A program made the position numbers and the translations under genes. Of a stretch of DNA of 64,000 nt, positions 39,207 to 39,547 are shown one piece after another. The notes below the pieces were generated by a model. It saw only the letters and a list, made by a program, of their open reading frames with translations, made no database searches and was not told where the DNA came from. The DNA lies in NCBI GenBank assembly GCA_951406725.2, contig OX597827.1:78120001-78184000 (forward strand), read 5' to 3'. This DNA is from Octopus vulgaris. Taxonomy: Eukaryota. Each line of letters opens with the position of its first letter. Position 1 is the stretch's first letter.

Positions 39207-39547
39207 ATTGCAGTGTGGAAGGTGTTTGTAAGCCATTTAAGAAACACACAAAAGCCGTTCGATTCACTTCAACATTTAAGTTTAATTTGTCAAAATATTT
39301 TCGTCGCTTTAAGACCGCGACCTGTTCACTGACAAAAATCCGTGCTGCATCACGGATTTTTGTCAGTGAACAGGTCGCGGATTTTAGCGACGAAAATATT
39401 TTGACAAATTCGCTTAAATGTTGAAGTGAATCGAATGGCTTTTGTGTGTTTCTTAAATGGCTTACAAACACCTTCCACTCTGCAATTGTTTTCATTCCAG
39501 TACACAATCTCAGATCAAATCACTTGCTATGCGAGTACATCTCCGTA
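39207..39547. mobile_element. Nested palindromic element (about 138-bp arms, 6-nt spacer) with variant hammerheads
   Basis: Arms 39207-39344 and 39351-39486 are near-perfect reverse complements, followed by about 60 bp of unpaired tail. Inserted in the host (AAT)n tract. Confidence 0.85.
39359..39408 (+). ncRNA. Hammerhead-like motif with G3:C8 core swap (mirror copy 39286-39336 on minus)
   Basis: TTTGTCA-GTGAACA-G-GTCGC-GGATTTTA-GCGAC-GAAA-ATAT-TT-TGACAAA. Confidence 0.7.

What the first reader, a model, noticed from the sequence alone, without database searches (positions are those of the whole stretch)
39286..39408. Natural G3:C8 compensatory-swap hammerhead in both arms of a nested palindrome
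Seen: TTTGTCA-GTGAACA-G-GTCGC-loop-GCGAC-GAAA-ATAT-TT-TGACAAA at 39359-39408(+) and mirrored at 39286-39336(-). It has a 7-bp stem I, a 5-bp stem II that is identical in both arms while the loop differs (GGATTTTA vs GGTCTTAAA), GAAA, a palindromic AATATT stem III and a UUU triplet. The core reads GUGAACA instead of CUGANGA. Known: C3 and G8 form a Watson-Crick tertiary pair in the active hammerhead, and a double swap can partly rescue activity. Inference: a second, unrelated hammerhead family whose covarying core implies selection for function and which searches requiring CUGANGA would miss.
Basis: partly seen in the sequence, partly recalled or inferred. Interest (0 to 1): 0.85.

Follow-up and report, generated by a model that had tools for sequence, protein, structure and literature searches.

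The report
Retroelement hammerhead with naturally swapped core
Thousands of copies of a Penelope-like jumping gene in this octopus-like genome carry a hammerhead-ribozyme fold whose key catalytic-core base pair is flipped from C-G to G-C, a swap I found in print only as a lab mutant; it likely still cuts slowly, but this is untested.

Summary
The motif is real and at the stated coordinates. It is the hammerhead (HHR) in the terminal repeat (pLTR) of a Penelope-like retroelement (PLE) with RT motifs, a CX3CxxC linker and a GIY-YIG nuclease. A full pLTR-ORF-pLTR copy carries it in both repeats. The window's palindrome is an ordinary inverted pair of short pLTR copies, inserted into another HHR-bearing repeat, so the two arms are not independent evidence. 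G3:C8 is fixed in the family: 7,078 pattern hits, 93 of the first 100 G3:C8 and none C3:G8; 55 of 61 copies chosen outside the HHR. The best evidence comes from related families in the same genome, which keep the 3:8 pair as C:G, U.G, U:A or G:C. One of them shares stems I and II but has U3.G8. Inserted copies start at a likely capped start site (31 of 94), never at the cleavage site (0 of 94), so cleavage does not make the template end. Cleavage is untested. Verdict: new variant of a known ribozyme type.

The parts
39351..39550 (+). Right arm: short copy of the PLE family-A pLTR end (from about +7 of the transcript through the HHR, the ORF start and the tail)
   Evidence: 185 identities, 14 mismatches, 2 gap positions against the 5' pLTR of full-length copy L095; ends at the family's second 3' end, about +205
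39207..39351 (-). Left arm: inverted short copy of the same pLTR end, starting at the family's usual 5' end (0/+1) and ending at the first 3' end (about +144)
39359..39408 (+). Type I minimal hammerhead with G3 (39366):C8 (39371), extra G at 9.1, 5-bp stem II, palindromic AAUAUU stem III; predicted cut 39401/39402
   Evidence: sequence, descriptor, fold
39286..39336 (-). Second copy of the hammerhead (G3 39329, C8 39324) with the 9-nt loop II of another subfamily; predicted cut 39293/39292
39457..39550 (+). First 31 codons of the PLE ORF (begins MAYKHLP)
   Evidence: same start continues into the RT/GIY-YIG reading frame in L096; window translation
39207..39236 (-). First 10 codons of the ORF in the left arm
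39490..39550 (+). Tail of about 60 nt present on one arm only, between the two 3' end clusters (inferred RT initiation sites)
   Evidence: 3' ends cluster at about +141-150 and +201-213; tail/RT-start model from PMC11167929
39570..39646 (-). tRNA-like head of the host repeat (A- and B-box-like motifs read by eye against a recalled consensus; ARAGORN finds no tRNA)
   Evidence: head joins (AAT)n and the same downstream body at other places
39047..39197 (-). Body of the host repeat with a canonical C3:G8 minimal hammerhead (C3 at 39141); family A is inserted in its (AAT)n linker
39648..39762 (+). Inverted copy of the host body (outer palindrome arm); its hammerhead (C3 39671) is damaged near the cleavage site
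   Evidence: not found by the descriptor

Best explanation
The motif is the minimal hammerhead in the terminal repeat of a Penelope-like retroelement, fixed as G3:C8 across the family, and it likely still self-cleaves slowly after U17 as a dimer or with help from the element's protein. Shown: location in both 1.1-kb pLTRs of a full element, about 56 nt ahead of the ORF start; family-wide G3:C8; pairing of 3:8 kept in four forms across related families. Inferred: transcription starts at a capped A 23 nt upstream of G3. The element's protein nicks AT-rich DNA on both strands and starts reverse transcription internally at about +145 and +205, running back to the cap. That yields the abundant 150-205-bp copies and, when both strands are primed, head-to-head palindromes like this one. 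These copies come from uncleaved RNA, so cleavage would act as a slow side step (removing the capped 59-nt leader, or splitting tandem transcripts), not as the maker of the template end. G3:C8 would keep the active-site geometry at reduced speed, as the engineered double mutant does.
For: PLE host: L095 has 98%-identical 1118-bp direct repeats, each ending in the HHR, around the ORF. P0002 is a 997-aa stretch without stops, with GIY-YIG above the Pfam cut-off and RT motifs read by eye. Fixation: 7,078 hits, control 3; 93 of the first 100 G3:C8 and 0 C3:G8 (counted by eye); 55 of 61 copies anchored outside the HHR. Covariation: family B U3:A8 in 25 of 30, family C C3:G8 in 22 of 23, family E U3.G8 in 18 of 21 with family-A-like stems I and II, family D canonical. 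In 14 hand-picked rows the 3:8 pair is CG 6, GC 4, UA 2, UG 2, unpaired 0, and stem II has double changes. A, B and C form one clade, (A,(B,C)), SH-aLRT 100 and 97 on a quick tree. Subfamily-level changes: 1 of 42 core/stem positions, a U-A to U.G wobble, vs 14 of 69 outside, p=0.008. Hand estimate: two changes among about 11 conserved core positions falling on 3 and 8 and being complementary has odds near 1/165. The 3:8 pair forms in the tertiary-stabilised structure, not in the minimal one (PMC3884650). In a lizard PLE the C3G/G8C double mutant partly restores cleavage, needs protein, and insertion uses uncleaved RNA (PMC11167929). 5' ends: 31 of 94 at -2..+2, 0 of 94 at +56..+60; a non-genomic G precedes the start in 65 of the first 100 hits.
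Against: No cleavage assay and no raw RNA reads. No copy starts at the cut site, although this also holds for 7 of 7 rows of the canonical outer family. The clade tolerates other departures: G at 9.1 where the published consensus is H, C9 fixed in family C (23 of 23), a 3-bp stem I in B, so constraint on catalysis may be relaxed. Against the 3' linker alone the subfamily test is not significant (1/42 vs 5/45, p=0.2). The dimer stem III is all A-U, and the modelled dimer with it is less stable than without it (-27.2 vs -29.0 kcal/mol); the minimum-energy monomer pairs G3 with U17, which could trap an inactive form. Published minimal PLE hammerheads cleave weakly in vitro. No ORF was found next to family E, so its place in the clade rests on motif likeness.
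Confidence: 0.62

Rival explanations
1. The fold is kept for a non-catalytic job, such as binding the PLE protein or pairing two RNAs in the insertion complex, and no longer cleaves at a meaningful rate.
For: 0 of 94 copies start at the cut site; HHR mutants do not affect insertion in the lizard PLE; other core departures in the clade; some inverted pairs join arms of different subfamilies (window, L005, L020, L027), as if two RNAs acted at one site.
Against: The 3:8 pair belongs to the catalytically active conformation, and it stays paired in four forms. G5, A6, G12, A13 and A14 show no subfamily-level change.
Confidence: 0.25
2. A dead relic: the ancestral hammerhead took two chance mutations in one master copy, which then amplified, and G3:C8 is coincidence.
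For: Copies are young and near-identical, so fixation alone says little; rare substitutions are as frequent inside as outside the motif; Naiad PLEs prosper without canonical HHRs.
Against: Complementary double change at exactly 3 and 8 in A, and again in B; subfamily changes fill the leader and loop II but spare core and stems; CpG-rich stem II kept between A and the much older family E.
Confidence: 0.11
3. A chance look-alike produced by the palindrome.
For: Rfam reports no hammerhead here.
Against: Same position in PLE repeats as clear hammerheads of sister families; family E bridges to the near-canonical core; none in simulated windows.
Confidence: 0.02

Closest known systems
Minimal hammerheads of metazoan Penelope-like elements (Cervera and de la Pena 2014, PMC4209133)
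   Same: Type I, in pLTRs, extra nucleotide between 9 and 10.1, G10.1-C11.1, tiny palindromic stem III (like the D. virilis type with a 2-nt insert), UUU triplet as in the C. gigas row, opposite-strand pairs, natural U3-A8 variant
   Different: G3:C8 core (no row of their 56-motif alignment begins with G3); G rather than H at 9.1; 7-bp stem I is longer than their typical 4-5 bp
PAc Poseidon element of Anolis (Frangieh et al. 2024, PMC11167929)
   Same: HHR at the pLTR/ORF junction, two 3' ends defining a tail, AT-rich (ATT) targets, insertions from uncleaved RNA
   Different: There C3G/G8C is an engineered partial rescue, here it is the natural state; this element has the CX3CxxC linker (Neptune/Nematis type) and its HHR lies wholly upstream of the ORF
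Natural core variants of Perreault et al. 2011 (PMC3088659)
   Same: Natural covariation at positions 3 and 8
   Different: The section read reports U3-A8, which keeps pyrimidine 3 and purine 8; G3:C8 needs two transversions
Neptune/Nematis C-terminal EN+ PLEs (Craig et al. 2021, PMC8557442)
   Same: RT, then CX2-5CxxC, then GIY-YIG; partial tandem and inverted copies; tail; (TA)n targets
   Different: Tail about 60 nt rather than 30-40; clade not resolved by phylogeny here

Membership tests
Hammerhead ribozyme (type I) | Three-way junction with stems I, II, III and G10.1-C11.1, A15.1-U16.1 | tested here: met
   stem III is only 2 bp as a monomer
Hammerhead ribozyme (type I) | Literal core CUGANGA | tested here: not met
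   GUGAACA in 93 of the first 100 hits when N3/N8 are scored
Hammerhead ribozyme (type I) | Paired 3:8, with U4, G5, A6, A9, G12, A13, A14 kept | tested here: met
Hammerhead ribozyme (type I) | NUH cleavage triplet | tested here: met
   UUU; U17 in 57 of 57 aligned copies
Hammerhead ribozyme (type I) | Self-cleavage at H17 | not testable with these tools
   no raw RNA reads; no genomic copy begins at the site
Rfam hammerhead families | Covariance-model hit | tested here: not met
   the canonical outer HHR is missed as well
PLE minimal hammerhead | Located in pLTRs flanking an RT-EN ORF | tested here: met
   L095, L096, L098
PLE minimal hammerhead | Extra nucleotide H at 9.1 and palindromic stem III | tested here: inconclusive
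   extra nucleotide and palindrome present, but it is G, outside the >80% consensus H
PLE minimal hammerhead | Works as a dimer | not testable with these tools
   energy model gives no support for the A-U stem III
Penelope-like element, EN+ | C-terminal GIY-YIG endonuclease | tested here: met
   PF01541, 25.5 bits vs cut-off 22.6
Penelope-like element, EN+ | RT domain | tested here: inconclusive
   no Pfam RVT_1 hit; RT motifs such as YVDD read by eye; best homolog named RT-domain protein by its source
Penelope-like element, EN+ | pLTRs, inverted 5' copies, optional tail | tested here: met
Neptune/Nematis clade | CX2-5CxxC linker before GIY-YIG | tested here: met
   CX3CxxC in P0002; definition
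Neptune/Nematis clade | RT phylogeny with reference clades | not tested
   the tree had no named reference elements

The most novel reading that the evidence does not exclude
The first natural, high-copy, cleavage-competent G3:C8 hammerhead. One retroelement clade has walked the catalytic 3:8 pair through C:G, U.G, U:A and G:C, tuning a deliberately slow ribozyme that acts as a decapping timer on the element's RNA rather than making the insertion template.
Probability: 0.3. Interest if true: 0.75.

Novelty: new variant of a known kind. Interest (0 to 1): 0.55.

Why it matters
It would extend natural hammerhead cores to a purine-3/pyrimidine-8 pair that I found in print only as a laboratory rescue mutant, and standard descriptors miss more than 7,000 motifs in this one genome. 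It also bears on an open question, what PLE hammerheads are for. Evolution keeps a pair specific to the active conformation, yet the inserted copies come from uncleaved, likely capped RNA. The five related families give a ready natural series for measuring cleavage rate against 3:8 identity.

Tried and rejected
3' splice-site reading of the CTAAC...CAG stretch upstream of the 5' end (286 exact copies): set aside because 13 junctions show no shared upstream exon and a single non-genomic G fits a copied cap better; not excluded. Search for further G3:C8 families with another stem II: 1,013 hits, below the control of 1,830, and no new hairpin family among the 100 listed (judged by eye); forms without the 9.1 insert were not searched. 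Search for canonical-core copies of family A: 37 hits; of the 10 loci read, 6 were mutated family-A copies, 3 were family E and 1 was chance. RNA: no RNA holder listed; laid contigs give no information on cleavage. Dimer energy model: no support. Avoidance of a G3-C17 pair as a reason for U17: dropped, since U17 is common in published PLE motifs. Short upstream ORF over the HHR: frame not kept among subfamilies. Rfam, ARAGORN: nothing relevant. Earlier scan notes: none. The careful tree did not finish; the quick one is used.

Full report
Observation. Each has a 7-bp stem I, the core GUGAACA, one extra G, a 5-bp stem II, GAAA, a palindromic AAUAUU stem III and a UUU triplet. Stems I and II dominate the predicted fold, alone and in context. 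A descriptor with free N3 and N8 finds four motifs in the window: these two and two canonical ones at 39141 and 33317. It found none with stems this long in 30 simulated windows. Rfam finds no hammerhead in the region, but it also misses the canonical neighbour.

What the palindrome is. The window lies in a 2.8-Gb animal genome. The best protein homolog of the element is labelled Octopus vulgaris, 57% identical, so the host is likely an octopus. Each arm is a copy of a dispersed repeat: a 20-mer just downstream of the motif has 12,126 exact hits, control 0. Following longer copies upstream led to an ORF with a GIY-YIG domain, a CX3CxxC linker and RT motifs read by eye (Pfam gave no RT hit). 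L095 holds a full unit: two 1118-bp direct repeats, 98% identical, each ending in the hammerhead, around the ORF. The ORF begins about 56 nt after the predicted cut, and its first codons are in both window arms. Inverted 5' copies, a tail on one end only and microsatellite targets are described for PLEs (PMC8557442, passages). The nesting has a simple cause: this element (family A) inserted into the (AAT)n linker of another repeat, which has a tRNA-like head, a canonical hammerhead and its own inverted copy.

Is G3:C8 fixed? Yes. A pattern leaving positions 3, 7, 8 and 9.1 free has 7,078 hits, control 3; of the 100 listed, 93 are G3:C8 and none C3:G8 (counted by eye). I also took the first 100 hits of an anchor outside the motif; 94 distinct copies were recovered. 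Of these, 61 reach position 3, and 55 are G3:C8; the other six are scattered single cases. Only 37 places genome-wide have both a non-G3 and a non-C8 in this context. Loose-end consensus lines from contigs under other organism labels (C and D) show the same core, so it is probably shared by several species.

Is it under selection? Copy-level decay is uninformative: rare non-CpG substitutions run at 0.018 per base in the motif and 0.017 in the linker (57 copies). Subfamily-level changes (5 or more copies, CpG decay excluded) hit 1 of 42 core and stem positions, and that one turns a U-A pair of stem I into U.G. They hit 14 of 69 positions outside (p=0.008), mostly in the leader and loop II; against the linker alone the contrast is not significant (5 of 45, p=0.2). 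The stronger evidence is between families. A nuclease-motif search gave two sister families. B has U3:A8 in 25 of 30 copies and C has C3:G8 in 22 of 23, both at the same place downstream of the ORF, with compensatory changes in stem II. A quick tree of 47 protein rows gives (A,(B,C)) with SH-aLRT 100 and 97; L114 was dropped for short coverage and homologs were limited to those covering the region. Family D, seen in four loci, is canonical. Family E (749 candidates, old) has the same inner stem I, the same G at 9.1 and the same stem II as family A, but U3.G8 in 18 of 21 similarity-selected copies, and C3:G8 in a few pattern-selected ones such as L307 and L308. No ORF was found within 3.5-4.5 kb of 11 fetched loci, 9 of them family E. 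In 14 hand-picked rows the 3:8 columns pair in all 14 (CG 6, GC 4, UA 2, UG 2); these rows represent five families, not 14 events. The 3:8 pair is seen in the tertiary-stabilised structure and not in the minimal one (PMC3884650, passages), so keeping it points to the active conformation.

Against that: the clade carries G at 9.1 where the published consensus has H, family C is fixed for C9, and family B has a 3-bp stem I. The energy model gives no support for the A-U dimer stem and pairs G3 with U17 in the monomer. Published minimal PLE hammerheads cleave poorly in vitro (PMC4209133).

How it likely works. Of the 94 copies, 31 begin at -2 to +2 around an A in TCAGAT, only 2 extend more than 7 nt further upstream, and none begins at the cut site. 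Where the genomic C before that A is absent, the base is G in 65 of the first 100 hits (T 25, A 10, counted by eye), with no shared upstream exon in 13 junctions. I infer a capped start site whose cap G was copied; some of these G's could instead come from the opposite arm. The 3' ends cluster at about +145 and +205. This matches the lizard PAc element, where the protein nicks ATT on both strands, starts reverse transcription internally at two sites that define the tail, uses unprocessed RNA, and helps its hammerhead cleave; C3G/G8C partly restores cleavage there (PMC11167929, main text read whole). So the short copies are likely cDNAs of the 5' end of uncleaved RNA, and two such events at one nicked site give the palindrome. 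The lack of cut-site ends is not special to the swap, since all 7 rows of the canonical outer family also keep the core (some rows repeat one locus). A single transcript through the window's palindrome would fold into one long hairpin, so these two copies are probably inert; any function lies in the source elements. My best reading is a slow, dimer- or protein-dependent ribozyme (0.62), then a non-catalytic RNA fold (0.25), then a relic (0.11).

Comparison with what is known. It works like, and by position and architecture belongs with, the PLE minimal hammerheads, but it fails the literal CUGANGA core. In PMC4209133 (main text parts 1-3 of 4; supplement parts 1-2 of 3, with the 56-motif alignment; one supplementary file was not searchable) the natural variants at 3:8 are U3-A8 and one U3.G8 row, none with G3. 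PMC3088659 (section 8; 11 supplementary files searched by text without hits, figures not visible) reports U3-A8. Ten literature searches gave no natural G3:C8. I also saw passages of PMC6765202, PMC2920678, PMC10085705, PMC2837043 and PMC13282606 (no 'ribozyme' in the last) and part 1 of 5 of bioRxiv 2026.07.22.740005. Not available: Lunse et al. 2017, which surveys very many PLE hammerhead variants and could list G3:C8; Hammann et al. 2012; Martick and Scott 2006; Przybilski and Hammann 2007; Nelson and Uhlenbeck 2008. From recall, Przybilski and Hammann found that any Watson-Crick 3:8 pair can support cleavage, with rates depending on context.

Verdict. A real, high-copy natural G3:C8 variant of a known ribozyme type in a known host class, with good comparative support and no activity data. 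New variant of a known kind; interest 0.55.

Noticed in passing
family A 5' ends genome-wide; window 39350-39351: A non-genomic G precedes the common 5' end in 65 of the first 100 hits, which suggests that the PLE reverse transcriptase copies the RNA cap or adds an untemplated C.
   Followed up: partly
window 39207-39550; L005, L020, L027: In a minority of inverted pairs the two arms carry different subfamily loop II alleles; in L005 a target duplication appears to flank both, as if two RNA templates served one insertion.
   Followed up: partly
window 39047-39762; also 63125 onward, 33422 downward, L068, L173: Host repeat made of a tRNA-like head, (AAT)n and a body with a canonical minimal hammerhead: a SINE-like element probably mobilised by a PLE.
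   Followed up: partly
L269:1541-1588(+), family C: A young family (1,518 exact hits of an upstream 22-mer) is fixed for C at position 9 instead of the conserved A, with a mostly non-palindromic stem III.
   Followed up: partly
L113, L126, L159, L088: Further hammerhead-like repeats with U3:A8 cores and a CCGG stem III, so U3:A8 occurs in more than one family here.
   Followed up: no
L065 about +76 to +160 from the start site: A long predicted hairpin spans the ORF start and the first 3' end cluster, a candidate protein-binding or RT-initiation structure.
   Followed up: no
window 41107-41210 (-): U6 snRNA copy (Rfam 103 bits) with a damaged 5' hairpin next to (AAT)n, probably a retrocopy.
   Followed up: no
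L066:3427-5865: A second, different PLE ORF (RT hit, weak GIY-YIG) sits beside a family-A copy.
   Followed up: no
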